In this document: positions 12,986-36,140 of the stretch, one piece after another
How the letters are laid out: every line of letters begins with the position of its first letter
Numbering within the stretch: position 1 is the stretch's first letter
Source: Lachnospiraceae bacterium
GTDB taxonomy: Bacteria; Bacillota; Clostridia; Lachnospirales; Lachnospiraceae
Length of the DNA: 64,000 nucleotides
NCBI GenBank assembly: GCA_030526245.1
Contig: JAUNDD010000002.1
Span: forward strand, 35,972 to 99,971
Direction: 5' to 3'
Program-made: the position numbers and the translations under genes
The notes under the pieces: model-generated
Seen by the model: only the letters and a program-made list of their open reading frames with translations
What the model was told of the DNA's origin: nothing
Databases searched by the model: none

Positions 12986-14731
12986 TTACAGAAGTCTTCT
13001 TGCTGCACACGGTGTACGGTAGCTCATGCTTGAGATGATGATACCGTTGGTGGGGTTGCTGGCGTGTACTACGCTGCCGCCGCCGATGTAGATGGATACA
13101 TGACCGATGCCGCCGTCGCCCTGATAGAAGAGCAGGTCACCCGGCTGAAGGGCATCCAGGCTTACCGCTGTACCGTAGCCGGACTGAGCCGCTGCGTTGT
13201 GCGGAAGAGATACGCCGTAGTTTGCGTAGACTGCCATGGTGAAGCCGGAGCAGTCAGCGCCGCCGGTCAGACTGGAGCCGCCCCATACATAGGGGTTGCC
13301 AACGAACTGGCAGGCATAGTCTGCAACGGACTGGCCGGCGGAAGAAGTGGAAGCGGAGGAAGAAGTATCATCCGAAGCATCCTCTTCGTAACCGTCGTAG
13401 GAGTCATCGTAGGACTCGTCGGAAGAACCATCGTCGTAAGCGTCACCGTCTTCTTCGTAGCTTTCATCTTCATAACCGCTGTCGGTGCCGGCATCGGTGT
13501 AGGAGTCGTTGGAAGATTCTTCCGTGTAGGACGGCTCGGTGTAGGTTTCTTCACTGGTCTGAGTATCGGCAGACGGTGTATTGGCAGCTGCATAGTCGGC
13601 TGCGTTCTGAGCTTCTACGTAAACGCGGTAAGCTTCTACGGCAGCAGCAGCGGTATCCAGGATCGTCTGCTCATCGGCACCGTTAGCTACGGCTGCATCG
13701 GCAGCAGCCTGTGCATCCAGGTAAGCCTGATACAGCTCTTCCAGAGAGGCTCCGGAAGGAGCGGTGTAGGTCGGTTCGGTGTAAGTGGGCTCGGAATAGG
13801 TGGGCTCACTGTAGGTCGGTTCGCTGTAGGACGGCTCGGTCCAGGTCTGCTGCTGGGCCTGCTGAGCAGCTGCGATTGCTTCCTGCTCGGCCAGATATGC
13901 CAGCCACTGTGCATCCAGACGGGCCTGTTCCTCTTCCAGAGTTTCGCCGGTAGCGTAAGCGGTGGAAGTGTAAACGTAATCAGCGCTCACATAGCCGTAG
14001 GTGTTGGCATCCAGTGCAACCTTAACCCATTCGCCTTCGTCTGCAACGACCTCGATCTTCTGATCGCAGCTGACGGTTGCGATGATGTCTGAATCACCGC
14101 TGGCGGAGGAACGTACATTCAGGACCTCGGCGCCAACCTCAGCGGTGGTGTAACCACTCTGGGAAGCGATGGCATCGGCTGCGCTTCCGATGGCGATATA
14201 GTCAGCTGCAACATAGCCTTCCACATTACCGGAACGAACGTGATACCAGCCGTCGGCATCTACGCCCAGGATCTCCAGAGAACCATTGTTATAGATCTTA
14301 CCGACCACATCCGCTTCGATGTAATTGCCGGAACGAACGTTGACATATTCATCGCACTGCGCAAAACCGGTGGTTCCGACCATGCTGGTATCCAGCTCGG
14401 TCTGGGGCTCGGTGGCAGCTTCGGTAGCCGGCTCGGTCTGAGCCTCGGTCTGCGGAACTGCTTCCGTCTCAGCCGGTGCTGCGCTTGGAGCAGCGGCCTG
14501 TGTTTCCGGCTGTGCCGGTGCCTCAGCGGCTGCATTCATTTCCATGGCAGCCGTTTCAACGGTATATTCAGCAGCGGCTTTTTCCCCGGAAGCAGCTGTC
14601 TTAGTCTGTTTTGCTCCAATTCCAACCAGGACACGATCAGCACCTGCTGCGTAAGCGGCCAGGCTTCCCTCGCTGATGATCAGTCCCGCTGCCAGGCAGA
14701 ACGTTGTAAACTTGGCAATTCCCTTTTTCAT
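12986..14731 (-). CDS. secreted NlpC/P60 family peptidoglycan endopeptidase with SH3b domains and low-complexity linkers
   Basis: Signal peptide MKKGIAKFTTFCLAAGLIISEGSLAAYA after RBS CAGGAGG. Two SH3-like modules (VNVRSGNYIEADVVGKIY..., LNVRSSASGDSDIIATV...). EPTYS repeats and a D/E/Y/S-rich tract. C-terminal NlpC/P60 (GNPYVWGGSSLTGGADCSGF...GHVSIYIGGG...HAS). Confidence 0.9.
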   Translation of the reverse strand: MKKGIAKFTTFCLAAGLIISEGSLAAYAAGADRVLVGIGAKQTKTAASGEKAAAEYTVETAAMEMNAAAEAPAQPETQAAAPSAAPAETEAVPQTEAQTEPATEAATEPQTELDTSMVGTTGFAQCDEYVNVRSGNYIEADVVGKIYNNGSLEILGVDADGWYHVRSGNVEGYVAADYIAIGSAADAIASQSGYTTAEVGAEVLNVRSSASGDSDIIATVSCDQKIEVVADEGEWVKVALDANTYGYVSADYVYTSTAYATGETLEEEQARLDAQWLAYLAEQEAIAAAQQAQQQTWTEPSYSEPTYSEPTYSEPTYTEPTYTAPSGASLEELYQAYLDAQAAADAAVANGADEQTILDTAAAAVEAYRVYVEAQNAADYAAANTPSADTQTSEETYTEPSYTEESSNDSYTDAGTDSGYEDESYEEDGDAYDDGSSDESYDDSYDGYEEDASDDTSSSASTSSAGQSVADYACQFVGNPYVWGGSSLTGGADCSGFTMAVYANYGVSLPHNAAAQSGYGTAVSLDALQPGDLLFYQGDGGIGHVSIYIGGGSVVHASNPTNGIIISSMSYRTPCAARRLL

Positions 14732-14821
14732 ATATAACCTCCTGATAAAGTCTCTGGCCCGGCCATGCATCCGGCTCCTCAGAAACAATTATTACGAATT
14801 TGTTACATTTATTACACAGGC

Positions 14822-17972: not shown

Positions 17973-18169
17973 ATTTTTTCTCCTTGTTCATAATTTAGCC
18001 TGTGAAGGGAAAAGGGATGGAAAAACCCTGCCCATCGATAGCTGGCTTTAGTCAAAATGACAAAAACACACCTATAATATACCGCTTGGCTTGGTAAGTG
18101 TCAATAAAGCGAAAGGCTGTTTGGAACAGAAAAACAGGAAAAAATGTTTGGCTGAGAGATGGGTTTAAC

Positions 18170-18197
18170 TTGACATTTCCAGGTGGATATGTAATAT
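18170..18197 (+). promoter_or_regulatory. candidate sigma-A promoter of the second P60 gene
   Basis: TTGACA at 18170-18175, a 16-nt spacer ending in TG, then TAATAT at 18192-18197. Confidence 0.5.
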
Positions 18198-18325
18198 TTT
18201 TAATATGCCGTAATATTTTTGTAATAAGTGAAGCAAAAATGTTCGAAACAAAGATCCTGAGATCAGGACTGTGCGAGCCTGCGGCAGGCCGGCGGTCTGC
18301 CGGAAGAAATGGAGTTAAAAGCCTT

Positions 18326-20461
18326 ATGAAGAAATTTTACCGATATATAATAGGAAGCCTGCTGGCGATGCTGCTGCTTTCGGGCAGTGCGCTGGCCGAC
18401 TGGAAGACGACCCCCGAGGGTAAGATCTATACCACCACCGCCAACAAGGCCGGCTACTATACCGGCTGGCATACCATCGATGGCAAACGGTATTATTTTT
18501 CGCCGTCCAACGGCGTTATGCAGACGGGCTGGCAGAAGATCGACGGGTACACCTACTATCTGGGAAGCAACGGACAGATGAGGACCGGCTGGCGGACCAT
18601 TGAGAAGAAGGTCTATTATTTTGGCAGCAATGGCCGTATGCGGATCGGTTTCATTAATTTTAAAAACGGTGACAGCACATACACCTGCCTCTTTGATGAG
18701 AACGGTGTTCGGCAGAGCGGATTGGTGTGGGTCAAAAACGATCTGTACTACTTCGGTGATAAGGGCGTCATGCAGAAGGGCCGTTTCAAGGCGAACGGCA
18801 AGTTCTACTATGGAGATCCGGCCACCGGCGTTCTGGCCCGGAACAAGTGGGTCGGCAATTATTACTACCAGGCGGACGGAACCATGGCTGCCAATCAGTG
18901 GGTCGACGGAAAGTGGCTGGGATCCACCGGTCTGTGGAACAACGGCAACACCGGCGGCATGGTCGTTAAAGGCGGCAAGACCTACTTTATCGATAAAAAC
19001 GGAAAGAAGAAGACCGGCTGGCTGATCAGCAACGGAAAGAAATACTACTTCGACAGCAAGGGTGTCATGAAGAAGGGCTGGTTTACCGTCGGCAATTACA
19101 CCTACTACGCCGGCAGCGACGGAGCTCTCTGGCAGGATCGCTGGAACGGACGGAAGTACCTGACCGTGACCGGAGCCATGGCCAAGGGCTGGCAGACCAT
19201 CGGAGGCAAACGCTACTGCTTTAAGAGCAGCGGTGTGCGCCGGCATGGCTGGGCCAAGGTGGACGGCAAAAACCTCCACTTTACCAAGGGTGTGCTGGAC
19301 ACCAACAAGTGGCTGGTCAAGAGTAAGAAAAAAGTATATGTGGGTGCGGATGGACAGCGTCTCACCGGTCTGCAGGAGATCGGCGGAAATACCTATTATT
19401 TCTCCACGGCCTCCGGCAATCCCATGCTGACGGGCTGGCTGAAACTGTCCGGCAAGATCTACTACGCGCATCCGACTACCGGTGCAATCGTAAAGAACAA
19501 GGCCTTTACGGTCGGAAAGTATCGATACTATGCTCAGGAAAACGGCGCACTGGCCACGGGGCTGACGAAGATCGGCAGCAAACTGTATTACTTCACCACC
19601 ACCAAGGGCCGGATGAGCAAGAACAAGAAGCGTGTGGTCAAGGGCGACACCTACTATTTCGGTTCAGACGGTGCGGCGCTGATGAAGCAGTGGAAGCAGA
19701 TCAGCGGCAAGTATTACTACTTTGGTGCGGAAGGCAAGATGCTGAAGAACACCATCGTGGACGGCTACTCCGTAGGAGCCGACGGTGTGCGCGGGGCCAA
19801 GACCACAGCGAATGGCTGGCAGACCATCGACGGCAAGAAGGTCTATGTGAAAAATGGCAGCATCCTGAAGGGCTGGCAGACCGTTGACGGAAGCCGGTAT
19901 TATTTCGATAAGACCAGCGGAGCCATGTTCACCGGCATTCAGGAGATCGACGGAAAGAAGTATTATTTCTATCCCACCGGCAAGCTGGCTACCAATATTT
20001 CACTGGCCGTAGGCAGCAAGGTCTACACCATCAATACCTCCGGTGTGGTTACAAAGGAGGCGGTGATCAACGTATCCGGCAATAACAAGGGTGCTCAGAT
20101 CGCCAAGTATGCGGTGAAGTTCGTGGGCAATCCCTATGTCTGGGGCGGCACCAGCCTGACCAACGGCGCGGACTGTTCCGGTTTCGTGCTGTCCGTATTC
20201 AAAAACTTCGGTATCACGGTCAAGCGTGTGGCGGACGACCAGATGAAGGGCGGCGGCTACATCGTCAAGAATACCTCGGATATGCTGCCGGGTGACCTGG
20301 TCTTCTACGGCCAGAGCAACTACGCCAGCCACGTGGCGATCTACATCGGAAACGGACAGATCGTACATGCCAGCAATTCCCAGCCCTATCCGGCGGGCGG
20401 CATCAAGATCTCCAATTATAACTACCAGACACCGATCCGGATCGTGCGGTACTGGACCTGA
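18326..20461 (+). CDS. cell-wall-binding-repeat (CW_binding_1/glucan-binding type) protein with a C-terminal NlpC/P60 endopeptidase domain
   Basis: Signal peptide MKKFYRYIIGSLLAMLLLSGSALA. More than 20 copies of the ~20-aa GW.k..gk.YYf...G.m.tGW repeat. C-terminal GNPYVWGGTSLTNGADCSGF...SHVAIYIGNG...HAS. Confidence 0.9.
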   Translation: MKKFYRYIIGSLLAMLLLSGSALADWKTTPEGKIYTTTANKAGYYTGWHTIDGKRYYFSPSNGVMQTGWQKIDGYTYYLGSNGQMRTGWRTIEKKVYYFGSNGRMRIGFINFKNGDSTYTCLFDENGVRQSGLVWVKNDLYYFGDKGVMQKGRFKANGKFYYGDPATGVLARNKWVGNYYYQADGTMAANQWVDGKWLGSTGLWNNGNTGGMVVKGGKTYFIDKNGKKKTGWLISNGKKYYFDSKGVMKKGWFTVGNYTYYAGSDGALWQDRWNGRKYLTVTGAMAKGWQTIGGKRYCFKSSGVRRHGWAKVDGKNLHFTKGVLDTNKWLVKSKKKVYVGADGQRLTGLQEIGGNTYYFSTASGNPMLTGWLKLSGKIYYAHPTTGAIVKNKAFTVGKYRYYAQENGALATGLTKIGSKLYYFTTTKGRMSKNKKRVVKGDTYYFGSDGAALMKQWKQISGKYYYFGAEGKMLKNTIVDGYSVGADGVRGAKTTANGWQTIDGKKVYVKNGSILKGWQTVDGSRYYFDKTSGAMFTGIQEIDGKKYYFYPTGKLATNISLAVGSKVYTINTSGVVTKEAVINVSGNNKGAQIAKYAVKFVGNPYVWGGTSLTNGADCSGFVLSVFKNFGITVKRVADDQMKGGGYIVKNTSDMLPGDLVFYGQSNYASHVAIYIGNGQIVHASNSQPYPAGGIKISNYNYQTPIRIVRYWT

Positions 20462-20539: not shown

Positions 20540-20570
20540 GGGCTCTGCGCAGGCAGAGCCCTTTTCTCTT
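20540..20570 (+). terminator. rho-independent terminator of the P60 gene
   Basis: 9-bp stem GGGCTCTGC-gcag-GCAGAGCCC followed by TTTTCTCTT. Confidence 0.85.
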
Positions 20571-20584
20571 AAGGAAATCTTCGG

Positions 20585-20612
20585 TTGAAATGGACCCCGG
20601 CGGTGTTATAAT
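20585..20612 (+). promoter_or_regulatory. extended -10 sigma-A promoter of the motA-like/motB-like operon
   Basis: TTGAAA at 20585-20590, a 16-nt spacer, then TGtTATAAT at 20604-20612. It lies about 215 nt upstream of the start codon. Confidence 0.6.
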
Positions 20613-20827
20613 CGTTACAGTATACATACGATGGGTAGACAGGCGGATCATCCGTGTGAGACCCGAAATGTATCCATGTATTAAACGGGGAGAACAATGG
20701 GTGACAGACGCGTCCGGCGCGGCTGTCGGAAACGGTCGGATCGGAGCATCCGGCCATGAAAAATGAGGCTGCTTATGAGAAAGGAAAGAAGAACCGTCAT
20801 GAGCAGACCTTAGGGAGGGGTTATACC

Positions 20828-22264
20828 ATGCGAAAAACATCGAATGTGATCGTAGGCCTGATGTCAGCGGCTGTTTGCGCGTTTGTGTCCTACATGATGC
20901 TGGGTTCGGGCCTGTTTACGATCATTTACAATCTGGGATTTCTGGCGATCATGCTGCTAATCCTCATTCTGGCGGAAGTGTTCGGCTTCCGGCGGATGCG
21001 GCAGACGGTAAAGGGCCTGGACAGTGCATCCCGCAAGCTGATGGCGGCCTATAAAAACAAGCCGGATCTGCTGGAGCTGACCAGAGCCGGCGCTCAGATC
21101 TTTGAGGTGGAGTATCTGGACCGCAAGTACCAGGAATATCTGGGGTACCTGCGCAAAACCAACAGTCCCTGCGATATCGGTGACTACATCGGCGAATATG
21201 AGATCAACAACTACACCCACCGTCGGCTGGTGGAGATGGTACCGGATATCCTGACCAGCTTCGGTATTCTGGGAACCTTCATCGGTCTGGTCATCGGTCT
21301 GGCCGGCTTTAATCCGGTTTCCTATGAGGCCATGGCGACCTCCATCACCTCGCTGGTGGAAGGTATCAAGATCGCTTTCGTTACCTCGATCTACGGTATC
21401 TCCCTGTCGATGGCTTACAATTACTGGCTGCGCGGCGCGCTGACCGGTGTGTCCGAGAGCCTGGACAATTTCCTGGACAAGTATTATCTGTGTGCGGTCT
21501 CGCCCACGGATGCCACCGCCATGAACCATGTGCTGGCGAACCAGAAGGAGCAGATCCGGGCCCTGGAGACCATGGGACGGGATATGTCGGAGCAGATGAG
21601 CGGCGCCCTGGATCCGGTCCTGGCTCAGATCAGCCAGACGCTGGAGGACTTTGTGGGCGTGGTGACCCTTAATCAGCAGGAAATGCTGGAACGGGTGGCC
21701 TCCCAGGTGGCCAGCTCCATGAAAAAGGAGTACATGACCGAGTTTTTCGAGATGCACAATATCTTAAAGGAGACCAACCGGGCACAGAAGGAATATCTGA
21801 ATATCCTGGGAGATGCCCAGCATACCTTTGAGGAGAGCATCCGCAGAAGTGCCGGCGAGATCGCGGCAGCGGCTTCCGGTGTGGCGGCCAGTCAGAAGGA
21901 AACTGCCAGACAGCTGGAGCAGCAGCAGGAGCACTTAAGCCAGTTTGTGGCGTATATGAGTGAAGTGATGCAGCGCATGAGCACGGGCATGAGTGCCATG
22001 AACGAGCAGACCGGCAAAGCCCTGGAGGCCATGACCGGACAGGCGGAGAGCCTGAAGGTGCTGGCGGAGCAGAGTGCGGCCAATGCGGCGCGGGCTCAGC
22101 GGGCACTGGAGGATGCAAGAGCGGCGGCGGAAGAGGTGGAACACCCCACCGTGCATACGCAGATCGAGGATATGGAAGAGCTGACCCAGCGGCTGGACCG
22201 GGTGGCGGATCTGATGGAGCGTCAGGCCCGGAAGGCACCGGCCAAGAAGGGATTTTTCAGATAA
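20828..22264 (+). CDS. MotA/TolQ/ExbB family proton-channel protein with a ~250-aa C-terminal coiled-coil tail (ZorA-like architecture)
   Basis: 478 aa starting at ATG 20828 after GGGAGGGG. Two N-terminal TM helices. Channel core PDILTSFGILGTFIGLVIGL...LVEGIKIAFVTSIYGISLSMAYNYWL. This is followed by a Q/E/A/M-rich helical region with no further hydrophobic segment. Confidence 0.8.
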   Translation: MRKTSNVIVGLMSAAVCAFVSYMMLGSGLFTIIYNLGFLAIMLLILILAEVFGFRRMRQTVKGLDSASRKLMAAYKNKPDLLELTRAGAQIFEVEYLDRKYQEYLGYLRKTNSPCDIGDYIGEYEINNYTHRRLVEMVPDILTSFGILGTFIGLVIGLAGFNPVSYEAMATSITSLVEGIKIAFVTSIYGISLSMAYNYWLRGALTGVSESLDNFLDKYYLCAVSPTDATAMNHVLANQKEQIRALETMGRDMSEQMSGALDPVLAQISQTLEDFVGVVTLNQQEMLERVASQVASSMKKEYMTEFFEMHNILKETNRAQKEYLNILGDAQHTFEESIRRSAGEIAAAASGVAASQKETARQLEQQQEHLSQFVAYMSEVMQRMSTGMSAMNEQTGKALEAMTGQAESLKVLAEQSAANAARAQRALEDARAAAEEVEHPTVHTQIEDMEELTQRLDRVADLMERQARKAPAKKGFFR

Positions 22265-22275
22265 GAGGATAAACG

Positions 22276-23352
22276 ATGAAGAAGGTAAATCGAAGAAGAA
22301 TGGACGACAGCACGCCCCATAACGTCTGGCGATCCTTTTCGGATATGATGTCCGGACTGCTCCTTCTGTTTGTCCTGATTATGGCAGTCTGTCTGATGCA
22401 GGCGCAGAAGAACTATACGGAAAAGCTGGCGGAGCAGGCCAAGCAGTCCCAGACCTTAAGCGAGCTGCAGGCCAGCCAGAGCCAGGTCAGTGAGCAGCAG
22501 GAAAAGCTCAGCGAGCAGGAGGCGACCCTGGCGGAGCAGGCCAGCGCCCTGGAGACCCTTCAGGCTGCGCTGGAGGCCCATCAGCTGAGCCTCAATGAAA
22601 AGGAGACGGAGCTGGAGAATGCCCAGTTGGCACTGGATGCCCAGACGCTGCTTCTTAATGAGCGGGAGTCGGAGTTGGCTCTGTCCCAGGCAAGCTTAAG
22701 TGCCTCCCAGCTGAAGCTGGACGAGGCCAACGCTCTGATGCTGCAGCAGCAGAGCAAGATCGACCAGATCATCGGTGTCAAGGCGGATCTGGTGGCGGCG
22801 CTGAACGATGAGTTTAAAAAGAACAGCATCTCGGTGCAGATCGATTCGAATACGGGCGCGATCCTGCTCGACTCCAGCGTTCTGTTCGAATTCAGTGAAA
22901 GTGAGCTGACTTCGGCCGGTATGGAGGTGCTCGATCAGGTGCTGGAGCCCTACTGTGAGGTATTGCTTCGCGAGGAATATGTGAATTACATTGCAGAAAT
23001 CATCATTGATGGTTATACTGATTCCAGTGGAGATTATCAATCGAACCTGATGCTGTCACAGCAGCGCGCCTACGCGGTGGCTGCGTACCTGACAGATACG
23101 ATGTATCAGTTCCTGAGCGGGCCCCAGACCGAGATCCTTCTCGGCAAGCTGACGGCAAACGGAAAATCCTCCAGCAATCTGATTCTGGAAGCGGACGGAC
23201 GGGAGAATGCAGACGCATCCCGTCGTGTTGAGATCAAGTTCCGCCTGAAGGATGAGGAGATGATCAGCGAGCTGCAGAAGCTGATCGTGGAGAGCCAGGC
23301 GGCAGCGGGCGGAGAGACAGCAGTTGCGGAAGCGGCTGCTGAGCAGGAATAA
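22276..23352 (+). CDS. MotB/OmpA family protein with a long coiled-coil linker and a C-terminal peptidoglycan-binding domain
   Basis: 358 aa. MotB-type N-terminus WRSFSDMMSGLLLLFVLIMAV with the conserved Asp. About 140 aa of heptad-like Q/E/L/S/A sequence. OmpA-like IIDGYTDSSGDYQSNLMLSQQRAYAVAAYL...ADASRRVEIKF. Lies 11 nt after the MotA-like gene. Confidence 0.8.
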   Translation: MKKVNRRRMDDSTPHNVWRSFSDMMSGLLLLFVLIMAVCLMQAQKNYTEKLAEQAKQSQTLSELQASQSQVSEQQEKLSEQEATLAEQASALETLQAALEAHQLSLNEKETELENAQLALDAQTLLLNERESELALSQASLSASQLKLDEANALMLQQQSKIDQIIGVKADLVAALNDEFKKNSISVQIDSNTGAILLDSSVLFEFSESELTSAGMEVLDQVLEPYCEVLLREEYVNYIAEIIIDGYTDSSGDYQSNLMLSQQRAYAVAAYLTDTMYQFLSGPQTEILLGKLTANGKSSSNLILEADGRENADASRRVEIKFRLKDEEMISELQKLIVESQAAAGGETAVAEAAAEQE

Positions 23353-27875: not shown

Positions 27876-28592
27876 ATGGGCAAGATCTATGGAGTCGTGC
27901 TGGCCGGAGGTATCGGAAGCCGCATGGGAAATGTGGAAAAACCGAAGCAGTTTCTGGAGCTGAAGGATAAGCCGATCATTGTACATACACTGGAAAAGTT
28001 TGCGGTCTATCCGGAGATGGATGAGGTGCTGGTGCTGACGCCGAAGGCATGGGTCAGCTTTACCCAGGATACCATCCGCCGGTATATCCCCAATGCGGAC
28101 GAACACATCAAGGTGCTGGCCGGCGGCGAGACCCGCAACGAGACGATCATGAATGCGATCCGTTACATTGAGGAGTGCGGCTGCTTGGATGAGGAGACCA
28201 TCATCGTGACCCACGATTCGGTGCGCCCCTTCGTGACCCATCGGATCCTGGAGGAGAACATCCGGTACGCCAGACAGTACGGTGCGACGGATACGGTGAT
28301 CCCGGCTACGGATACCATCGTGGAGAGCACCGGCGGGGATCAGATCACCTCGATCCCGAACCGCAAATACATGTATCAGGGCCAGACGCCCCAGACCTTC
28401 CATGCCCTTCGTCTGAAGCAGCTGTATGAGGCGCTGACGGATGAGGAGAAGGATGTGCTGACGGATGCCTGCAAGATCCTGGTGCTGAAGGGCGAGCATG
28501 TGCATCTGGTACAGGGTGAGACCTTTAACATCAAGATCACCTACCCCTATGATCTGACGGTGGCCAAGGCACTGCTCGGACTGGAAGAGTGA
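27876..28592 (+). CDS. tarI: ribitol-5-phosphate cytidylyltransferase (IspD family)
   Basis: 238 aa. VVLAGGIGSRMGNVEKPKQFLEL and VTHDSVRPFV. Immediately followed by a TarJ-like reductase. RBS AAAAGGAGGAA. Confidence 0.85.
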   Translation: MGKIYGVVLAGGIGSRMGNVEKPKQFLELKDKPIIVHTLEKFAVYPEMDEVLVLTPKAWVSFTQDTIRRYIPNADEHIKVLAGGETRNETIMNAIRYIEECGCLDEETIIVTHDSVRPFVTHRILEENIRYARQYGATDTVIPATDTIVESTGGDQITSIPNRKYMYQGQTPQTFHALRLKQLYEALTDEEKDVLTDACKILVLKGEHVHLVQGETFNIKITYPYDLTVAKALLGLEE

Positions 28593-28605
28593 GAGGAGGG
28601 AGCCC

Positions 28606-29655
28606 ATGCTTAATGCTGTATATCAGCTGGTGAGACCCAGACAGTTTGAGGTCAGCTTTTCCCACATCGATCTGAACGGCGGGGACGTGATCGTACGTCC
28701 CACCCATCTGTCCATCTGTAATGCCGACCAGCGGTACTACCAGGGCAAGCGTTCGGAGGAGATCCTGCGGCAGAAGCTGCCCATGGCCCTGATCCACGAG
28801 GCCATCGGCCGGGTGGTGGCCGATCCCACCGGCACCTTTGCACCGGGAGACAAGGTGGTCATGATCCCGAATGTACCGGTTCTGCCGGAGGATCCGGCGG
28901 AATGTCCCCAGGTGGTGGCTGAAAACTACCGGCGCTCCAGTAAATTCCGGGGCAGCAGCCTGGATGGCTTTATGCAGGAGTACATCGCCACCCGTCCGGA
29001 CCGTCTGGTGAAGATCCCGGACTGCATCGACAACGATCTGGTGGCAGCCTTTACGGAGATGGTCAGCGTCTGCTACCACGCCATCAGCCGCTTTGAGCGC
29101 ACGGCCCATGCGGTGCGCGGCACCATCGGTGTCTGGGGCGACGGAAATATGGGATATTTTACCGCGCTGCTGCTCCACGCCCGTTTCCCGGAGGCAAAGA
29201 TCCTGGTATTCGGTGTGGATGAGAGCAAGCTCAGCGACTTTACCTTTGCGGATGCTGTATACAAGGTGAATGCGATCCCGAAGGATCTGATCGTGGACCA
29301 CGCCTTTGAGTGCGTGGGCGGTATGGTGTCCGGTACGGTCATCGGGCAGATCATCGATCATATCCGGCCGGAGGGAACCATCGCGATCCTGGGTGTATCC
29401 GAGGAGCCGGTGCCCATCTATACCAGAATGGTACTGGAAAAGGGCCTGCGGATCATCGGCACCAGCCGCAGCGGCTACGAAGACTTTGCAGGTGTGATCG
29501 AGCTGTACGCCCAGCGTCCGGATGTGGTCAACTATCTGGAAAAGATGGTTGGCGCGGTGGTGGATATCCGCAGTATCCGGGACATCAATGAGGCCTTTGA
29601 GATGGACATCGCCAAGGCTGGCGGCAAGACCATCATGCATTGGGAATGCTTCTGA
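28606..29655 (+). CDS. tarJ: ribulose-5-phosphate reductase (zinc-dependent MDR family)
   Basis: 349 aa. N-terminus MLNAVYQLVRPRQFE...THLSICNADQRYYQG is typical of TarJ. Follows tarI. Confidence 0.8.
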   Translation: MLNAVYQLVRPRQFEVSFSHIDLNGGDVIVRPTHLSICNADQRYYQGKRSEEILRQKLPMALIHEAIGRVVADPTGTFAPGDKVVMIPNVPVLPEDPAECPQVVAENYRRSSKFRGSSLDGFMQEYIATRPDRLVKIPDCIDNDLVAAFTEMVSVCYHAISRFERTAHAVRGTIGVWGDGNMGYFTALLLHARFPEAKILVFGVDESKLSDFTFADAVYKVNAIPKDLIVDHAFECVGGMVSGTVIGQIIDHIRPEGTIAILGVSEEPVPIYTRMVLEKGLRIIGTSRSGYEDFAGVIELYAQRPDVVNYLEKMVGAVVDIRSIRDINEAFEMDIAKAGGKTIMHWECF

Positions 29656-30899
29656 TGGGCATGAAAAAGACCGTCCGTGGATGGATCAGTGCCGCACCTT
29701 TTGTAAAGGTGCGGCATTTTCTCGGACACCGACGGGATGATCTGGAATATTTCCTGGAATATCCGGCGCTGTACCGGCGGGAGGCCCGCCGGCCGGTGGA
29801 GGAAAACAAGGTCGTGATGATCGAGGTGCGGCTGGAGGGAATCAGCAATAACTTTACCCTGCTGCACCGGGAGCTGACCGGGACCTATGGTCTGGATGTG
29901 CATGTGCATCATCTGCGCACTGGTTTTGTGGGGCACCGGGAGTACCGGCGCCGCTGCCGGGCACTGATCCGGGATCTGGCTACGGCTAAATATGTGCTGA
30001 TCAACGAGGGGTCTCTCGTTTTATCCTGTCTGCCGCTGCGAAAGGAGACCGTCTGCGTGCAGACCTGGCATGCCTGCGGGGCCTTTAAGCGCTTCGGTAT
30101 GAGTACGGGAAAGTATCTGTTCGGCATGGATGAGAAGCGTCAGCGCCGGCATCCCCAGTATCGGGGCTATACCTTCGCCACGGTGAGCAGTCCGGAGGTG
30201 GTCTGGGCCTATGCGGAGGCCTTTGATATGAAGGAGATGGATTACGAAAAGGTGATCCGGCCTCTGGGTGTCAGCCGGACGGATATCTACTTCGATCCGG
30301 CGGCCAGGGACAGGGCCTTTGCGCATCTGTATCAGGCCTTTCCGGCGGCTCGGGGCAAAAAAGTGATCCTGTATGCCCCCACCTTCCGGGGCAGGGTGGC
30401 AGATGGCATCACAGCGGACCGGCTGGATGCGGAAGCCTTTTACCGGGCTCTGGGAGAGGAGTATGTGCTGATCACAAAGCATCACCCGGTGACGAAAAAG
30501 CTGCCGGAGCTGCCGGAGGAGCTGGTGGGAAGCTTTGTATACGATGCCACCCGCAGTCTGAGCATTGAGGATCTGCTGCTGGTCAGTGACGTGTGCATTT
30601 CCGACTATTCCTCCCTGATCTATGAGTACTCCCTGCTGGAGCGGCCCATGCTGTTTTTTGCCTATGACCTGGAGGAGTACTATGACTGGCGCGGCTTTTA
30701 CTACAGCTATGAGGAGCTGACACCGGGGCCGGTGTGCCGGACCAATGAGGAGCTGATCGACTGGATCGCTCACCTGGAGGAGCGGTTTGACCGGCAGCAG
30801 GTCATCGACTTTAAGGACCGGTTCATGTCGGCCTGTGACGGGCATGCCACGGAGCGGATCCTGAAGGAGATGAAGGTGGCAGAAGGGTCGACAGTATGA
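29655..30899 (+). CDS. CDP-glycerol/CDP-ribitol poly(alditol phosphate) phosphotransferase, TagF/TarL family (paralog 1)
   Basis: Motifs TWHACGAFKRFG, YAPTFRG and ISDYSSLIYEYSLLERPMLFFAYD, with C-terminal FMSACDGHATERI. The start overlaps the tarJ stop (TGATG); ATG 29640, 29646 and 29661 are also in frame. Confidence 0.85.
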   Translation: MGMKKTVRGWISAAPFVKVRHFLGHRRDDLEYFLEYPALYRREARRPVEENKVVMIEVRLEGISNNFTLLHRELTGTYGLDVHVHHLRTGFVGHREYRRRCRALIRDLATAKYVLINEGSLVLSCLPLRKETVCVQTWHACGAFKRFGMSTGKYLFGMDEKRQRRHPQYRGYTFATVSSPEVVWAYAEAFDMKEMDYEKVIRPLGVSRTDIYFDPAARDRAFAHLYQAFPAARGKKVILYAPTFRGRVADGITADRLDAEAFYRALGEEYVLITKHHPVTKKLPELPEELVGSFVYDATRSLSIEDLLLVSDVCISDYSSLIYEYSLLERPMLFFAYDLEEYYDWRGFYYSYEELTPGPVCRTNEELIDWIAHLEERFDRQQVIDFKDRFMSACDGHATERILKEMKVAEGSTV

Positions 30900-32056
30900 A
30901 TATCAAACTATTCTTAAAGCAATACGTTAAAATGGCAGCACAGAAGGTTGTGCTGCCTGTTATCTATCGGCGCTGGCGCGGCGAAGGGGTGGATCCGAAG
31001 CTGGTGATCCTGGCGGATGCCCACCACAACGAGCGGCCGGAAAACATGCGGCTGCTGTACGAGGCGCTGAAGGCGGCGCCGGAGAACTATCATATCCGGG
31101 AGATGTACCTGGATTACGGCCGGTCATCTGCCGGACAGGTATTTCGGCACATGGCGGATTTCATGAAGTGGTATGCCCGGGCCTCGTCGGTGGTGATTTG
31201 TGACAACTTTCTGCCGGCGGCGGGCTGCCGGAAGCGGCCCGAGACCCAGGTGATCCAGCTTTGGCACGCCTGCGGGAGCCTGAAGCGTTTCGGATACGAT
31301 ACCACCGGAGACATTCCCGCCAATTACCGCGGCAACGTCTTCCGGAATACGGATGTGGTGACGGTATCGGCACCGGCCTGTGTGCCGGCCTTTGCCGGCG
31401 CCATGCGTCTGCCCCGGGAGGCGGTGCAGCCCCTGGGGGTGAGCCGAACGGACCGCTACGCCGATCCGGCCTGGGCAGCTGCCTGCCGGGAAAAGTTTGA
31501 AAGGCTGTATCCCCAGGCGGCGGGCCGCAAGATCGTCCTGTGGGCTCCGACCTTCCGGGGCAGTCCCGGGGCTCCGGTGGTGGAACTGCCGGACCTGGAG
31601 AGGCTGAGCCGGGAGCTGGGTGAGGAGACCAGGCTGATCGTGCGGCTGCATCCCCATATGAAGGAGGCGGCGGGACAGCTTTCGGCGGAGATGACCGCCG
31701 AGGGGATGACCACCGAAGAACTCTTTGCGGTGACGGATGTGCTGATCGCGGACTATTCCTCGCTGATCTTTGAATATCTGCTCTTTGGGGGGCGGCTGGT
31801 TCGCTATGCCCCGGATCTGGAGCACTATATAAAAGAGAGAGGCTTCTATCTGGATTACAGCAGTATCCCCGGCGAGCTTGTCCTGGAGGAGCCGAAGCTG
31901 GCGCCGGCGGTACGCCGGGCTCTGGAGACGGAAGAAACGCCGGAAGAGGCGCAGAAGCGAAAGCAGTTTCTGCAGCGGTACATGAGTGCCTGCGACGGAC
32001 ATGCCACGCAGCGGGTGGCGGAGCTGATCCGGAAGCACGGGGAGTCGATTCGCTGA
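30896..32056 (+). CDS. TagF/TarL family phosphotransferase (paralog 2)
   Basis: 386 aa. LWHACGSLKRFG, WAPTFRG, IADYSSLIFEYLLFGG and YMSACDGHATQRV. ATGA overlap with paralog 1. Confidence 0.85.
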   Translation: MNIKLFLKQYVKMAAQKVVLPVIYRRWRGEGVDPKLVILADAHHNERPENMRLLYEALKAAPENYHIREMYLDYGRSSAGQVFRHMADFMKWYARASSVVICDNFLPAAGCRKRPETQVIQLWHACGSLKRFGYDTTGDIPANYRGNVFRNTDVVTVSAPACVPAFAGAMRLPREAVQPLGVSRTDRYADPAWAAACREKFERLYPQAAGRKIVLWAPTFRGSPGAPVVELPDLERLSRELGEETRLIVRLHPHMKEAAGQLSAEMTAEGMTTEELFAVTDVLIADYSSLIFEYLLFGGRLVRYAPDLEHYIKERGFYLDYSSIPGELVLEEPKLAPAVRRALETEETPEEAQKRKQFLQRYMSACDGHATQRVAELIRKHGESIR

Positions 32057-32102
32057 GCGGGTAGCAGAGCTGATCCGGAAGCACGGGGAGTCGATTCGCT
32101 GA
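32011..32102 (+). repeat. 46-bp tandem duplication (44/46 identity) of the 3' end and stop codon of TagF paralog 2
   Basis: GCGGGT(G/A)GC(G/A)GAGCTGATCCGGAAGCACGGGGAGTCGATTCGCTGA at 32011-32056 and 32057-32102. The last 36 bp are identical. Confidence 0.9.
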
Positions 32103-32195
32103 CCGGGGAAGACAGCGCAAACAGACGAAGAAGCCAGAGGCTCGGTGCAGCATAAAGGCGGACAGCGGATGACGGAATCAGGAGGACCAGACGAG

Positions 32196-33979: not shown

Positions 33980-33996
33980 AATAAAGGAGAAATGTT

Positions 33997-34101: not shown

Positions 34102-34115
34102 CCAGGCGGGAAGGC

Positions 34116-36011: not shown

Positions 36012-36140
36012 TCCGGTAAGGAAGCGGTCGGCGTTATTGTGATGTACGGCTGCAGCTTGCTGCGTGAAGCGGCTGCAGTACCTGCGGCAGACGATCACGA
36101 TTTACTGTCTGGTCAAATTTGAAAAAGAGGAAGAAGTAAT

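What the first reader, a model, noticed from the sequence alone, without database searches (positions are those of the whole stretch)
20828..23352. Orphan MotA/MotB-type stator-like pair with long coiled coils on both subunits and no flagellar, Tol/Ton or effector partners
The two ORFs are 11 nt apart and have their own promoter.

ORF-A (478 aa) has two N-terminal TM helices and a MotA/ExbB channel core (PDILTSFGILGTFIGLVIGL…LVEGIKIAFVTSIYGISLSMAYNYWL). About 250 aa of uninterrupted Q/E/A/M-rich helix follow.

ORF-B (358 aa) has the MotB-type plug/TM segment with the conserved Asp (FSDMMSGLLLLFVLIMAV). It then has about 140 aa of heptad-like Q/E/L/S sequence and an OmpA/MotB peptidoglycan-binding domain (GYTDSSG…NLMLSQQRAYAV…RRVEIKF).

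Nothing flagellar, chemotactic or Ton/Tol-like occurs anywhere in the 64 kb. The flanks are a wall hydrolase and holB.

A MotA-like pentamer-forming subunit with a long cytoplasmic tail plus a PG-anchored MotB-like subunit is the ZorA/ZorB core of Zorya anti-phage systems. However, no ZorC/D/E/F/G-like effector is adjacent; the only HNH gene is 15 kb away in a separate unit. The extra coiled coil on the MotB-like partner is not, as far as I know, a ZorB feature. In a thick Gram-positive wall it could span the peptidoglycan.

This looks like an ion-driven envelope machine of unknown output. Candidate roles are envelope-stress or phage sensing, wall remodelling, or a minimal Zorya-like module.
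Basis: partly seen in the sequence, partly recalled or inferred. Interest (0 to 1): 0.75.

Follow-up and report, generated by a model that had tools for sequence, protein, structure and literature searches.

The report
Effector-less ZorAB-like motor, stalked ZorB
This gene pair encodes a proton-driven membrane motor related to the core of the Zorya anti-phage system, but it lacks Zorya's DNA-attacking partner genes, carries a long stalk suited to a thick Gram-positive wall, and sits as a conserved core gene pair in many gut Lachnospiraceae, so its real job is still unknown.

Summary
ORF-A (20828-22264) and ORF-B (22276-23352) form a two-gene unit with its own sigma-70-like promoter.

By profile, solved-structure sequence search and predicted fold, both proteins are closest to ZorA/ZorB and far from flagellar MotAB. 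The newest Pfam already labels ORF-A's family 'ZorA-like_t1'. The proton-path residues (ZorB Asp, ZorA Thr/Ser) and three of the four ZorB residues that Hu et al. tested as PG-binding are conserved.

Three features set it apart from canonical ZorAB:
- ORF-B has a ~140-residue heptad coiled-coil stalk inserted between the TM helix and the OmpA-like domain.
- ORF-A has an extra N-terminal TM helix.
- ORF-A's tail is shorter and ends in a basic/aromatic tip.

No ZorC/D/E/F/G gene was found in the window or near the pair in about 125 related loci. The pair occurs across Lachnospiraceae (Porcincola, Merdiplasma, Blautia, Marvinbryantia) at fixed housekeeping positions. In Blautia it is under purifying selection like its essential neighbours. 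It is essentially absent from plasmid and phage collections.

It is most likely a ZorAB-type wall-anchored rotary sensor with an unidentified cytoplasmic output. Whether that output serves envelope surveillance or defence is not settled. I rate it a new variant of a known kind.

The parts
18098..20461 (+). Upstream neighbour (context only, not shown to be a partner): secreted cell-wall-binding-repeat NlpC/P60 peptidoglycan hydrolase
   Evidence: Pfam Choline_bind_3 1e-76 and NLPC_P60 1e-22. Of 26 related genome loci with at least 5 kb of upstream sequence, 19 have a homologue upstream on the same strand. It is absent from the Blautia loci.
20540..20570 (+). GC-rich hairpin (GGGCTCTGCG-CAGG-CAGAGCCC) followed by TTTTCTCTT: likely terminator of the hydrolase gene
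   Evidence: Sequence read. The scan flagged the same hairpin, reporting it on the minus strand.
20585..20612 (+). Sigma-70-type promoter-like site TTGAAA-16-TATAAT with a TG extended -10
   Evidence: 11 of 12 consensus matches. A similar CTTAAGAAA...GTTGAAAT-17-TATAAT block lies upstream of the orthologous gene in L001-L003, L010, L020 and L044. This is a consensus match only; transcription was not tested.
20613..20827 (+). About 215-nt leader with a Shine-Dalgarno GGGAGGGG at 20813-20820
   Evidence: No Rfam family matches it; the only weak hit nearby lies on the terminator hairpin. Several relatives have leaders of only about 25-40 nt.
20828..22264 (+). ORF-A, ZorA-like subunit (478 aa)
   Evidence: PADLOC: 19 ZorA models, best 4.4e-19. 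Pfam PF28082 'ZorA-like_t1'. The family profile hits ZorA chains 8vvn_C at 7e-24 and 8qyd_A at 7.7e-18, against MotA 8gqy at E 0.34. The top 6 Foldseek hits are all ZorA.
20840..20989 (+). ORF-A residues 5-54: two N-terminal TM helices (a hairpin); the first is extra relative to canonical 3-TM ZorA
   Evidence: Hydropathy peaks at residues 7-25 and 36-54. AF2 helices 2-26 and 29-76 with pLDDT 81-92. The canonical ZorA in L043 has one N-terminal TM, and EcZorA has three TMs in total.
20990..21235 (+). ORF-A residues 55-136: membrane-proximal cytoplasmic domain with the near-invariant motif KYQEYLxYLRKTNSPxDIGDYIGEYEINNYTHRR
   Evidence: Alignment A1. This region aligns with the matching region of Shewanella type I ZorA 8vvn_C.
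21236..21436 (+). ORF-A residues 137-203: TM3, extracellular loop and TM4 channel core. P139, I147, T150, E167 and S187 correspond to EcZorA P136, I144, T147, E164 and S184
   Evidence: Residue-by-residue HMM alignment to 8qyd_A. These residues are invariant in A1, and T150 and S187 are also invariant in A4. 44% identity to E. coli ZorA2 over residues 131-198. Residue roles are taken from Hu et al..
21437..22264 (+). ORF-A residues 204-478: helical cytoplasmic tail (at most about 41 nm if fully extended) ending in the basic/aromatic tip KKGFFR
   Evidence: AF2 predicts all helix with breaks near residues 258-261, 349-354 and 439-449, at low pLDDT. The tail aligns with the EcZorA tail (second stretch, 1.3e-5). 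The tip is conserved in most orphan lineages and absent from the canonical ZorA of L043.
22276..23352 (+). ORF-B, ZorB-like subunit (358 aa)
   Evidence: PADLOC ZorB1 PDLC00609 1e-63 and ZorB2 8.9e-35. PDB ZorB chains 8vvi_A 2.8e-13 and 8qyd_F 1.6e-12. The top 5 Foldseek hits are all ZorB.
22276..22401 (+). ORF-B residues 1-42: basic N-terminus and TM helix with the invariant Asp23 (codon 22342-22344), equivalent to EcZorB Asp26
   Evidence: Alignment to 8qyd_F. D23 is invariant in 21 homologues. D26 is essential in EcZorB.
22402..22821 (+). ORF-B residues 43-182: extracellular heptad coiled-coil stalk (about 21 nm), an insertion relative to canonical ZorB
   Evidence: AF2 predicts one continuous helix over residues 20-182, pLDDT mostly 70-93. 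The PADLOC ZorB1 match splits into two stretches around it. It appears as an insertion of about 80-125 aa against the ZorB of L043. Hydrophobic periodicity power is 1.56 at 3.5 residues against 0.14 at 3.6. Its length varies in blocks between lineages.
22822..23352 (+). ORF-B residues 183-358: OmpA-like peptidoglycan-binding domain (N257, L260 and R264 match EcZorB N152, L155 and R159), a conserved C-terminal helix KFRLKDEEM, and an acidic tail
   Evidence: Pfam OmpA 1.5e-11. Alignment to 8qyd_F. Invariant columns in A2. Predicted fold.

Best explanation
The pair encodes a ZorA/ZorB-type ion-driven membrane motor. It belongs to a distinct effector-less lineage that is fixed in the core chromosome of many Lachnospiraceae.

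SHOWN:
- Both subunits are homologous to ZorA and ZorB in sequence and in predicted fold.
- The proton-path residues are conserved (ZorB-like D23; ZorA-like T150 and S187).
- ORF-B carries an OmpA-type wall-binding domain.
- ORF-B has a roughly 140-residue coiled-coil insertion.
- No Zorya effector gene was found in the window or in the related loci.
- Gene position is conserved within clades, and the pair is under purifying selection in Blautia.

INFERRED by analogy with the solved E. coli ZorA5B2 complex:
- Five ORF-A subunits surround a dimer of ORF-B.
- The ORF-B dimer forms a rigid stalk of about 20 nm that places its peptidoglycan-binding domains inside the thick Gram-positive wall.
- When the stalk is anchored, proton flow through Asp23 turns the ORF-A pentamer, and with it the roughly 275-residue helical cytoplasmic tail.
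- The tail and its conserved basic/aromatic tip pass the state of the wall to one or more cytoplasmic partners encoded elsewhere.

The most likely role is standing surveillance or maintenance of the cell envelope, which may include detecting phage attack. A canonical Zorya response that degrades DNA is less likely.
For: Identity as ZorAB:
- PADLOC ZorA 4e-19 and ZorB 1e-63.
- Pfam PF28082 'ZorA-like_t1'.
- PDB sequence hits go to ZorA and ZorB chains only; MotA scores E 0.34.
- Foldseek ranks ZorA (about 1e-6), then ExbB/TolQ (about 1e-2), then MotA (about 4e-2). ZorB heads the list for ORF-B.

Mechanism residues: D23, T150, S187, P139, I147 and E167 align with EcZorB D26 and EcZorA T147, S184, P136, I144 and E164 and are invariant in alignments A1/A2. 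Three of the four PG-binding residues tested by Hu et al. (N257, L260, R264) are conserved.

Stalk: one continuous predicted helix over residues 20-182. It is a heptad-periodic insertion relative to canonical ZorB.

No effectors found:
- The window-wide PADLOC scan shows none.
- In 39 genome loci the recurrent neighbours I identified are housekeeping or cell-wall genes.
- 80 metagenome loci carry no ZorC or ZorD homologue.
- By contrast, the distant family member in L043 has ZorC (EH_Signature) and ZorD (SNF2) and sits in a defence island.

Core-gene behaviour:
- Position is fixed within each clade: NlpC/P60|A-B|holB in the window's clade, and pheST-HisPhos|A-B|map-rplS-lepB in Blautia.
- One exact Blautia protein is indexed in 42,905 blocks of the collection.
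- dN/dS is 0.075 for A and 0.051 for B, against 0.014-0.084 for the flanking essential genes. The stalk is at 0.015 and the tail at 0.082.
- Close relatives are absent from 72,556 plasmids. Two weak hits occur in 50,697 phage records, and one in 2.9 million viral contigs.

Envelope context:
- The window holds two NlpC/P60 genes, pgm, teichoic-acid genes, LtaS-type genes and HtrA.
- 22 of 26 related loci have an NlpC/P60 or a transglutaminase-like secreted enzyme upstream.
Against: - There are no experimental data for any member of this lineage, and I found no paper on it.
- Every characterised ZorAB acts in phage defence.
- The output partner is unidentified, so the signalling step is pure inference.
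- The link to wall enzymes is confined to the window's clade and is absent in Blautia. It could be inherited gene order and nothing more.
- Purifying selection and chromosomal fixation do not exclude a defence role.
- The AF2 tail model has low confidence (pLDDT 37-71 per 10-residue block), and the 5:2 assembly was not modelled.
- Scores against NCBI's curated ZorA/ZorB models fall below their cut-offs: 66 against 100 bits, and 63 against 400 bits.
- Effector absence in the metagenome loci rests on BLAST with a single ZorC/ZorD pair as probes.
Confidence: 0.55

Rival explanations
1. It is a minimal Zorya-like anti-phage module. The ZorAB-like sensor detects phage-induced wall damage. It then works with effectors encoded elsewhere in the genome, with a still unrecognised effector, or alone (for example by dissipating the membrane potential).
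For: All close characterised relatives are Zorya cores. The tail, which recruits effectors in E. coli, is retained and under purifying selection. The conserved basic/aromatic tip could be a docking site. The same Pfam family includes a true type I Zorya (L043).
Against: No ZorC/D/E/F/G gene was found in the window or in about 125 related loci. In E. coli, deleting any Zorya gene abolishes defence, and the depolarisation model was refuted. Earlier work also found that ZorAB is not sufficient for defence. The pair lies in housekeeping regions and not in defence islands, and it is not seen on plasmids or phages. Zorya is under-represented in monoderms.
Confidence: 0.3
2. It is a mechanical energiser of extracellular wall enzymes, acting as a Gram-positive counterpart of Tol-Pal or Ton. 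The proton-driven motor acts through the long B stalk to position or activate peptidoglycan hydrolases (NlpC/P60, the transglutaminase-like protein) or the teichoic-acid machinery.
For: NlpC/P60 and/or a secreted transglutaminase-like gene lies upstream on the same strand in 22 of 26 related loci. In L006, L008, L012, L026 and L038 the gap is only about 30-80 nt with no promoter, which suggests co-transcription. L001 and L003 have other PG enzymes directly upstream. The window is rich in envelope genes. The long helical stalk recalls the periplasm-spanning helix of TolA (my own knowledge).
Against: The link to wall enzymes is missing in Blautia, Marvinbryantia and other lineages that keep the pair. 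In the window the hydrolase gene has its own terminator and the pair its own promoter. By analogy with MotAB and ZorAB, an OmpA-anchored B subunit would be the static part, so the moving part would be the cytoplasmic tail and not the stalk. This model also gives the conserved tail no role.
Confidence: 0.12
3. It is an ordinary flagellar stator (MotAB or MotPS), or a decaying remnant of one.
For: Public annotations call relatives 'flagellar motor component MotA' or 'chemotaxis protein MotB'. There are weak Pfam MotA_ExbB and MotB_plug hits.
Against: MotA and MotP score far worse than ZorA: E 0.34 in PDB and E 0.018 for MotP in NCBIfam. Fold ranking puts MotA below ExbB/TolQ. No flagellar gene was identified near the pair in the loci I examined or in the window ORFs I scanned. 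Strong purifying selection excludes decay. The pair is present in Blautia, which is described as non-motile (my own knowledge).
Confidence: 0.02

Closest known systems
ZorAB core of type I Zorya (E. coli EcZorAB, PDB 8qyd; Shewanella sp. ANA-3, PDB 8vvn)
   Same: These are the best sequence, profile and fold matches for ORF-A. They share the MPCD motif region and the TM2/TM3-equivalent channel core with the Thr/Ser filter. ZorB's TM Asp, an OmpA-like PGBD with Asn/Leu/Arg PG-binding residues, and a long helical cytoplasmic tail with detectable tail homology are also shared. ORF-A falls in the same Pfam family, ZorA-like_t1.
   Different: No ZorC or ZorD. ORF-B carries a roughly 140-aa coiled-coil stalk, whereas the EcZorB PGBD is fused directly to the TM helix. 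ORF-A is predicted to have four TM helices, not three. Its tail is about 275 aa against about 507 aa (70 nm) and ends in a basic/aromatic tip. The PGBD has a single Cys, so the two EcZorB disulfides cannot form. The pair lies in the core genome and not in a defence island.
ZorAB core of type II Zorya (Sulfuricurvum kujiense, PDB 8vvi; E. coli ZorA2)
   Same: It gives the best PDB and Foldseek match for ORF-B: 8vvi_A at 2.8e-13 and 7e-11. ORF-A is 44% identical to ZorA2 over residues 131-198. PADLOC ZorA2 models score about as well as ZorA1 models.
   Different: No ZorE. The only HNH protein in the window lies 15 kb away on the other strand and matches no ZorE model. The stalk, the extra TM helix and the genomic context differ as described for type I.
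Flagellar stators MotAB, MotPS and PomAB
   Same: They share the 5:2-motor superfamily, a four-TM A subunit, and a B subunit with a TM Asp and an OmpA-like wall anchor. The MotS periplasmic domain is a mid-ranking fold hit for ORF-B.
   Different: Sequence and fold similarity are much weaker. There are no flagellar neighbours. The A subunit has a long coiled tail, not a FliG-binding cytoplasmic domain. The B subunit has a rigid heptad stalk, not a plug plus flexible linker.
ExbBD-TonB and TolQR-TolA
   Same: They are second-tier fold matches for ORF-A's membrane core. Functionally they link a proton motor to the envelope through a long helical element.
   Different: Their B subunits lack an OmpA-type domain, and the long helix belongs to a separate protein (TonB or TolA). 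They serve the outer membrane, which this organism lacks. No TonB- or TolA-like gene is present.
NCBIfam PRK09039-type 'peptidoglycan-binding protein' (TM + coiled coil + OmpA; NF006543 and NF006542)
   Same: The overall B-subunit layout is similar: an N-terminal TM helix, a long coil and a C-terminal OmpA-like domain. NF006543 aligns over ORF-B residues 4-275 at E 1.4e-8.
   Different: Scores are far below the curated cut-offs (35 against 305 bits). The function of that family is also uncharacterised as far as I know. The relationship was not examined further.

Membership tests
ZorAB motor (ZorA/ZorB protein families) | A subunit matches ZorA profiles better than any other MotA/ExbB/TolQ-type family | tested here: met
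   19 PADLOC ZorA models, best 4.4e-19. Pfam PF28082 ZorA-like_t1. PDB ZorA 7e-24 against MotA 0.34.
ZorAB motor (ZorA/ZorB protein families) | B subunit matches ZorB profiles and chains best | tested here: met
   PADLOC ZorB1 1e-63. PDB 8vvi_A 2.8e-13 and 8qyd_F 1.6e-12. Top 5 Foldseek hits are ZorB.
ZorAB motor (ZorA/ZorB protein families) | Scores reach NCBI's curated cut-offs for named ZorA/ZorB subfamilies or equivalogs | tested here: not met
   antiphage_ZorA_2 scores 66.4 bits against a cut-off of 100. ZorB1 scores 63 against 400. ZorA1 and ZorA2 equivalogs score 37-49 against 700-750. It is therefore a divergent relative and not a member of the named type I/II equivalogs.
ZorAB motor (ZorA/ZorB protein families) | Predicted fold of the membrane core matches solved ZorA | tested here: met
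   Foldseek top 6 are ZorA chains, E 2.6e-6 to 7.4e-5, TM-score (target-normalised) 0.45-0.66. Residues 1-220 of the model have block-mean pLDDT of 62-92, mostly 75 or higher.
ZorAB motor (ZorA/ZorB protein families) | Essential TM aspartate in B and a Thr/Ser ion filter in A | tested here: met
   D23 matches EcZorB D26. T150 and S187 match EcZorA T147 and S184. All are invariant in the family alignments.
ZorAB motor (ZorA/ZorB protein families) | OmpA-like PGBD carrying the residues that Hu et al. mutated as PG-binding (EcZorB Y151, N152, L155, R159) | tested here: met
   N257, L260 and R264 are conserved and invariant. Y151 corresponds to S256, so 3 of 4 are kept. Binding itself was not tested.
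ZorAB motor (ZorA/ZorB protein families) | ZorB PGBD fused to the TM helix without a linker | tested here: not met
   About 140 residues of continuous helix (43-182) lie between the TM helix and the PGBD. This is an insertion of 80-125 aa relative to canonical ZorB.
ZorAB motor (ZorA/ZorB protein families) | ZorA with three TM helices | tested here: not met
   Two hydrophobic helices precede the MPCD, giving four TMs in total. The canonical ZorA of L043 has one. This rests on hydropathy and AF2 only.
ZorAB motor (ZorA/ZorB protein families) | Long alpha-helical cytoplasmic tail on ZorA | tested here: met
   About 275 residues are predicted helical, with sequence similarity to the EcZorA tail. 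It is shorter than the roughly 507-aa EcZorA tail.
ZorAB motor (ZorA/ZorB protein families) | A5B2 stoichiometry and proton-driven rotation | not testable with these tools
   No multimer modelling was available. This needs cryo-EM or AlphaFold-Multimer, plus functional assays.
Zorya anti-phage system (types I, II, III) | zorAB co-localised with zorC+zorD, zorE, or zorF+zorG | tested here: not met
   None appears in the window: a PADLOC scan of 116 ORFs and a targeted scan of the HNH gene found none. None appears among the neighbours I identified in 39 genome loci, in 80 metagenome loci, or in the Blautia, L041 and L042 contexts. The positive control L043 shows both ZorC and ZorD.
Zorya anti-phage system (types I, II, III) | Accessory or defence-island genomic behaviour | tested here: not met
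   The pair keeps fixed housekeeping positions within clades. Close relatives are absent from the plasmid collection and nearly absent from phage and viral collections. dN/dS resembles that of flanking essential genes.
Zorya anti-phage system (types I, II, III) | Protects against phage infection | not testable with these tools
   This requires phage-challenge experiments.
Flagellar stator MotAB/MotPS | Best similarity to MotA/MotB families and a flagellar gene context | tested here: not met
   MotP E 0.018, MotA (PDB) E 0.34, Pfam MotA_ExbB below its gathering score. No flagellar genes were identified in the window ORFs scanned or near the pair in related loci.
ExbBD/TolQR energisers | A partner TonB or TolA, and a B subunit of ExbD/TolR type | tested here: not met
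   The B subunit is of OmpA/ZorB type. No TonB- or TolA-like genes are present. ExbB and TolQ are only second-tier fold matches.

The most novel reading that the evidence does not exclude
This lineage would be a new functional class of 5:2 rotary motor, beside motility, Ton/Tol, gliding/T9SS and Zorya defence. It would be a housekeeping ZorAB-type machine of monoderm bacteria. Its stalked ZorB would act as a molecular ruler embedded in the thick wall, and its rotating cytoplasmic tail would report or regulate cell-wall state independently of any nuclease effector. On this reading, Zorya could have arisen by coupling such an envelope sensor to DNA-degrading effectors, or the sensor could have arisen from Zorya by losing them.
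Probability: 0.3. Interest if true: 0.8.

Novelty: new variant of a known kind. Interest (0 to 1): 0.62.

Why it matters
ZorAB is the newest class of 5:2 ion-driven motor. Its activation model depends on the short distance between ZorB and the membrane in Gram-negative cells. Zorya is reported as under-represented in single-membrane bacteria, possibly because of wall architecture.

This lineage shows that Gram-positive gut bacteria keep a ZorAB-type motor with a built-in stalk of about 14-21 nm and with none of the known effectors. Carriers include Blautia, which is very widely detected in gut metagenomes. The pair behaves as a conserved core gene pair.

It offers a natural experiment on three questions:
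- How does ZorB reach and sense peptidoglycan?
- What does the ZorA tail do when ZorC and ZorD are absent?
- Do ZorAB motors have roles outside phage defence?

It also bears on annotation. Defence-finder tools will hit these genes at the HMM level but should not call a Zorya system. Public annotations label them as flagellar MotA/MotB, including in Blautia, which is described as non-motile (my own knowledge).

Tried and rejected
- **Riboswitch or known RNA in the 215-nt leader.** No Rfam family matched at gathering or at E<=1. The only weak hit lies on the terminator hairpin.
- **The HNH gene at 38329-40668(-) as a displaced ZorE.** It gives only weak, generic HNH matches (REase_II, Cas9 HNH, PtuB) and no ZorE hit.
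- **'mad2/3/8' PADLOC hits as a defence system.** The mad3 and mad8 hits I checked fall on ABC-transporter ATPases and a HerA-like ATPase. I did not trace which ORFs give the mad2 hits.
- **The 1,670-aa ORF downstream of the pair in one Blautia lineage as a new effector.** It is a signal-peptide, leucine-rich-repeat surface protein.
- **PF27881 and PF28019 on ORF-B homologues as specific ZorB-stalk families.** They are weak, generic coiled-coil matches (CRWN_N, HmpF).
- **Literature.** Searches for PF28082, 'ZorA-like', ZorAB with monoderm, Blautia with MotA/MotB/OmpA, and orphan or stator-like terms found no description of this lineage. The stator-phylogeny preprint excluded ZorAB.
- **Plasmid, phage and viral carriage.** I found only remote proteobacterial ZorA core hits, two weak hits in unannotated faecal contigs, and one IMG/VR contig.
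- **Prevalence of the Blautia pair against flanking pheS by exact-sequence look-up.** I used synteny and dN/dS instead.
- **WalR-type box in the promoter region, by eye.** No convincing match.
- **The third homologue search with intermediate relatives.** It returned only 28 proteins because of the word index, though these were enough to find L041-L043.

Full report
**1. Observation**

The two ORFs are real. ORF-A runs 20828..22264 (478 aa); an in-frame upstream ATG at 20756 gives the 502-aa form used in public gene calls. ORF-B runs 22276..23352 (358 aa), 11 nt downstream.

The start at 20828 is preferred for two reasons. It is preceded by GGGAGGGG at 20813-20820. Twenty diverse homologues also begin at the same MRK.

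The upstream hydrolase gene is followed by a GC-rich hairpin and T-run at 20540-20570. An 11/12 sigma-70-like promoter with a TG extended -10 lies at 20585-20612. An AGAGGA Shine-Dalgarno sits in the 11-nt gap before ORF-B. The pair is therefore plausibly its own operon with a leader of about 215 nt. That leader matches no Rfam family.

**2. What the proteins are**

Pfam alone is weak for ORF-A: MotA_ExbB at E 5e-4, below the gathering score. For ORF-B it is clear: OmpA at 1.5e-11.

Defence-specific and structural comparisons are decisive.
- ORF-A hits 19 PADLOC ZorA models, best 4.4e-19. ORF-B hits ZorB1 at 1e-63 and ZorB2 at 8.9e-35.
- NCBIfam ranks ZorA and ZorB families first, although below their curated cut-offs.
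- A profile of 21 ORF-A homologues finds only ZorA chains in the PDB with significance: 8vvn_C at 7e-24, EcZorA 8qyd_A at 7.7e-18 and 8vvi_F at 3e-11. Flagellar MotA (8gqy) scores E 0.34.
- ORF-B's best PDB hits are ZorB chains.
- AF2 models were built from the family alignments. ORF-A has mean pLDDT 66, with block means of 62-92 (mostly 75 or higher) over residues 1-220. ORF-B has mean pLDDT 80.
- Foldseek on the ORF-A model ranks ZorA first (top six hits, E 2.6e-6 to 7.4e-5), then ExbB/TolQ (about 1e-2), then MotA/PomA (about 4e-2 and weaker).
- Foldseek on the ORF-B model ranks ZorB first (top five hits, 7e-11 to 1e-7).
- The precomputed Pfam label on all ORF-A homologues, PF28082, resolves to 'ZorA-like_t1'.

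**3. Mechanistic residues**

I used the residue-level alignments to EcZorAB and the functional map in Hu et al. 2024 (PMC11946911).
- ORF-B D23 corresponds to the essential ZorB D26.
- ORF-A T150 and S187 correspond to the T147/S184 ion filter.
- P139, I147 and E167 correspond to P136, I144 and E164.
- ORF-B N257, L260 and R264 correspond to three of the four residues Hu et al. mutated as PG-binding (N152, L155, R159).

All of these are invariant in the family alignments. T150 and S187 stay invariant in more distant relatives. This supports a working ion-driven, wall-anchored motor of the ZorAB type. The 5:2 stoichiometry is inferred, not tested.

**4. How it differs from canonical ZorAB**

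(a) *The ZorB stalk.* AF2 predicts one continuous helix over residues 20-182. The PADLOC ZorB1 match splits into two stretches around it. Aligned with a canonical ZorB (L043), the orphan-type B proteins carry an insertion of about 80-125 residues between the TM helix and the PGBD. The insertion has heptad periodicity: power 1.56 at 3.5 residues against 0.14 at 3.6. Its length changes in blocks between lineages. At 0.15 nm per residue (standard alpha-helix geometry), 140 residues give about 21 nm. Hu et al. stress that the EcZorB PGBD is fused to the TM helix without a linker. Their activation model depends on the PGBD normally being too short to reach the wall.

(b) *An extra TM helix.* ORF-A and its relatives have two N-terminal hydrophobic helices, giving four TMs with the N-terminus inside. 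Canonical ZorA has three TMs in total.

(c) *The tail.* It is about 275 residues against about 507 in EcZorA. It retains detectable similarity to the EcZorA tail (second stretch, 1.3e-5). In most orphan lineages it ends in a basic/aromatic tip: KKGFFR, RRGLFGR, FSLFK, FGLFK or VLFRRRKK. The canonical ZorA of L043 lacks this tip.

**5. No effectors**

I scanned all 116 window ORFs of at least 120 aa against PADLOC. ZorA and ZorB hits were the only Zorya hits among the 25 families listed; 42 families were hit in all.

I scanned 39 window ORFs against Pfam, including the two target ORFs. They include:
- two NlpC/P60 hydrolases, pgm, trmB, holB, PSP1/RicT and rsmI;
- TarI/TarJ-like genes, three TagF-type transferases and two LtaS-type sulfatases;
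- HtrA, a GH18+SH3 protein, transporters and choline-binding-repeat proteins.

Nothing flagellar, chemotactic or Ton/Tol-like turned up.

**6. Distribution and context**

A genome scan returned 39 loci, all from Lachnospiraceae or unclassified Clostridia/Clostridiales MAGs. They include Porcincola, Candidatus Merdiplasma and many rumen and gut MAGs. ZorB follows ZorA in 37 of them, and the other two contigs are truncated.

Downstream genes vary and are housekeeping: holB-ricT-rsmI, SbcCD or V-ATPase. Further upstream lie Sua5, ProC, AroE and S1/CvfB genes.

Of 26 loci with at least 5 kb of upstream sequence, 19 carry the NlpC/P60 gene and 13 carry a roughly 900-aa secreted transglutaminase-core protein. 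22 carry at least one of the two. L001 and L003 instead have a beta-lactamase-fold protein and an LD-carboxypeptidase directly upstream.

An exhaustive HMMER search with the motor domain found 2,707 representative clusters at E<=1e-3, 423 at <=1e-10 and 42 at <=1e-30.

Contexts of more distant members give a clear contrast.
- L043 is a textbook type I Zorya. It has ZorA-like_t1, a 249-aa ZorB, an EH_Signature protein (ZorC) and an SNF2 protein (ZorD). It sits inside a defence island with McrBC, a methyltransferase and DEAD/MZB genes.
- L041 and L042 are orphan pairs with 313-326-aa B subunits in housekeeping surroundings.

A metagenome scan returned 80 more loci, mostly from the human gut. Every locus with enough downstream sequence has an adjacent B gene, of about 310-373 aa where complete. 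None has a ZorC or ZorD homologue.

Exact-sequence look-up assigns the two dominant lineages to Blautia (a 'MULTISPECIES [Blautia]' protein, B. wexlerae, B. massiliensis, Blautia sp. MCC270). Another lineage belongs to Marvinbryantia. One Blautia protein is indexed in 42,905 blocks of the collection. It sits between pheS-pheT-HisPhos and map-rplS-lepB-ylqF-rnhB in three independent metagenomes. The upstream synteny is shared by both Blautia lineages.

**7. Core-like behaviour**

In 14 Blautia loci, Nei-Gojobori dN/dS is 0.075 for A (motor 0.060, tail 0.082) and 0.051 for B (stalk 0.015, PGBD 0.071). The flanking genes span 0.014 (pheS) to 0.084 (HisPhos).

Close relatives are absent from 72,556 plasmids; only the TM core matches proteobacterial ZorA1 and ZorA2. 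There are two weak hits in 50,697 phage records and one locus in 2.9 million IMG/VR contigs.

This pattern is vertical inheritance at clade-specific fixed positions, under selection like that on neighbouring essential genes. It is unlike the defence-island setting of L043. It does not by itself exclude a defence role.

**8. Interpretation**

The firm conclusion is that the pair is a ZorAB-type motor of a distinct, effector-less, stalk-bearing lineage. I put about 0.9 on this identity.

How it works is inferred from EcZorAB. A ZorA-like pentamer surrounds a ZorB-like dimer. The dimer's stalk places the PGBDs about 20 nm out, within the thick wall. Proton flow through D23 turns the pentamer and its tail. 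The tail and its tip address cytoplasmic partners that are not encoded next to the pair.

The stalk bears directly on the Hu et al. model. The canonical sensor is 'too short' until the envelope is perturbed. This lineage has a fixed-length spacer under very strong constraint, which fits a ruler-like or constitutively engaged anchor.

I rank the readings of the output as follows.
- Envelope surveillance or maintenance is the most likely role. My confidence in that full statement, identity plus this role, is 0.55.
- A minimal defence module with unlinked or unknown effectors is second (0.30). Against it, ZorAB alone is insufficient in E. coli and the depolarisation model was refuted.
- A Tol-like energiser of the neighbouring wall enzymes is third (0.12). 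It is attractive in the window's clade, where short gaps suggest co-transcription with the transglutaminase-like gene in L006, L008, L012, L026 and L038. The link is absent in Blautia.
- A flagellar stator or a decaying relic is effectively excluded (0.02).

**9. Novelty**

I found no paper describing this lineage. Hu et al. note only that Zorya is under-represented in monoderms. Public annotation calls these proteins MotA/TolQ/ExbB-family, 'flagellar motor component MotA' or OmpA-family. The newest Pfam files ORF-A under ZorA-like_t1, so the homology is already curated.

What appears to be unreported is the combination of four features: missing effectors, the ZorB stalk, the fourth TM helix with the tail tip, and core-genome fixation in widely detected gut commensals. 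I therefore rate it a new variant of a known kind, with interest 0.62.

Noticed in passing
window 45951-46117 (+): Rfam 'Clostridiales-1 RNA' (RF01699) at 110.8 bits, E 2.6e-24, full length. It lies immediately 5' of, and overlaps, the start of ORF 45987-48092. That ORF is an unusual fusion of an ABC-transporter ATPase with a UDP-galactopyranose mutase (ABC_tran + NAD_binding_8 + GLF).
   Followed up: no
window 27876-38120 (+): A teichoic-acid and lipoteichoic-acid block. It holds an IspD/TarI-like gene, an ADH/TarJ-like gene, three paralogous TagF-type glycerophosphotransferases (29640, 30896, 32145) and two LtaS-type sulfatase-domain proteins (34116, 36141). Part of this block is syntenic in the close relative L127.
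   Followed up: partly
window 38329-40668 (-): A 779-aa protein whose only recognisable domain is a C-terminal HNH (residues 693-743). About 690 N-terminal residues have no Pfam match. PADLOC gives no ZorE match. A 762-aa ORF with no Pfam hit overlaps it on the opposite strand.
   Followed up: partly
window 7215-8078 (+): An HTH_3 + Uma2 (putative restriction endonuclease fold) protein that matches the PADLOC candidate defence family PDC-S03 at 3.2e-40.
   Followed up: no
window 56674-59138 (+): A 216-aa protein matching a 'Type II nicking endonuclease' model (2.3e-17) lies directly upstream of a 598-aa HerA_C-type ATPase (Pfam 1.2e-204). This could be a nuclease-ATPase pair.
   Followed up: no
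L006, L008, L012, L026, L038 (for example L026:5023-7923): A roughly 900-aa secreted protein lies directly upstream of the ZorA-like gene. It has a transglutaminase/cysteine-protease core and repeated Cys-rich motifs. The gap is only about 30-80 nt and has no promoter-like block, so it may be co-transcribed with the pair in those species. The window lacks it.
   Followed up: partly
window 20565-20612, and upstream of the ZorA-like gene in L001-L003, L010, L020, L044: A conserved block CTTAAGAAA(n)GTTGAAAT-17-TATAAT lies upstream of the orthologous genes. The CTTAAGAAA element could be an UP element or a regulator site. The window has a 215-nt leader where several relatives have about 25-40 nt.
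   Followed up: no
L043:1-21824: A canonical type I Zorya: ZorA-like_t1 607 aa, ZorB 249 aa, EH_Signature ZorC and SNF2 ZorD. It is embedded in a defence island with McrBC, an N6 methyltransferase/Eco57I-type protein, and UvrD and DEAD/MZB helicases. It served as a positive control for what a complete system looks like with the same tools.
   Followed up: yes
L094, L096, L106, L109, L110, L113 (for example L113:9779-14776): In the Blautia lineage with a 553-aa A subunit, a roughly 1,670-aa surface protein follows the pair on the same strand. It has a signal peptide and leucine-rich repeats. The other Blautia lineage has map-rplS-lepB at that position.
   Followed up: partly
L128 (IMGVR_UViG_3300029372_000158): This is the only IMG/VR contig, out of 2.9 million, with a family member (30% identity). 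I did not check whether the pair lies in a host flank of a predicted provirus.
   Followed up: no
window 735-2684 (+) and 12986-14788 (-): Further wall-active enzymes lie in the window: a GH18 + SH3 + Cu_amine_oxidN1 protein, and a second NlpC/P60 with SH3 domains. The latter is syntenic with the pair in L035 and L036.
   Followed up: no
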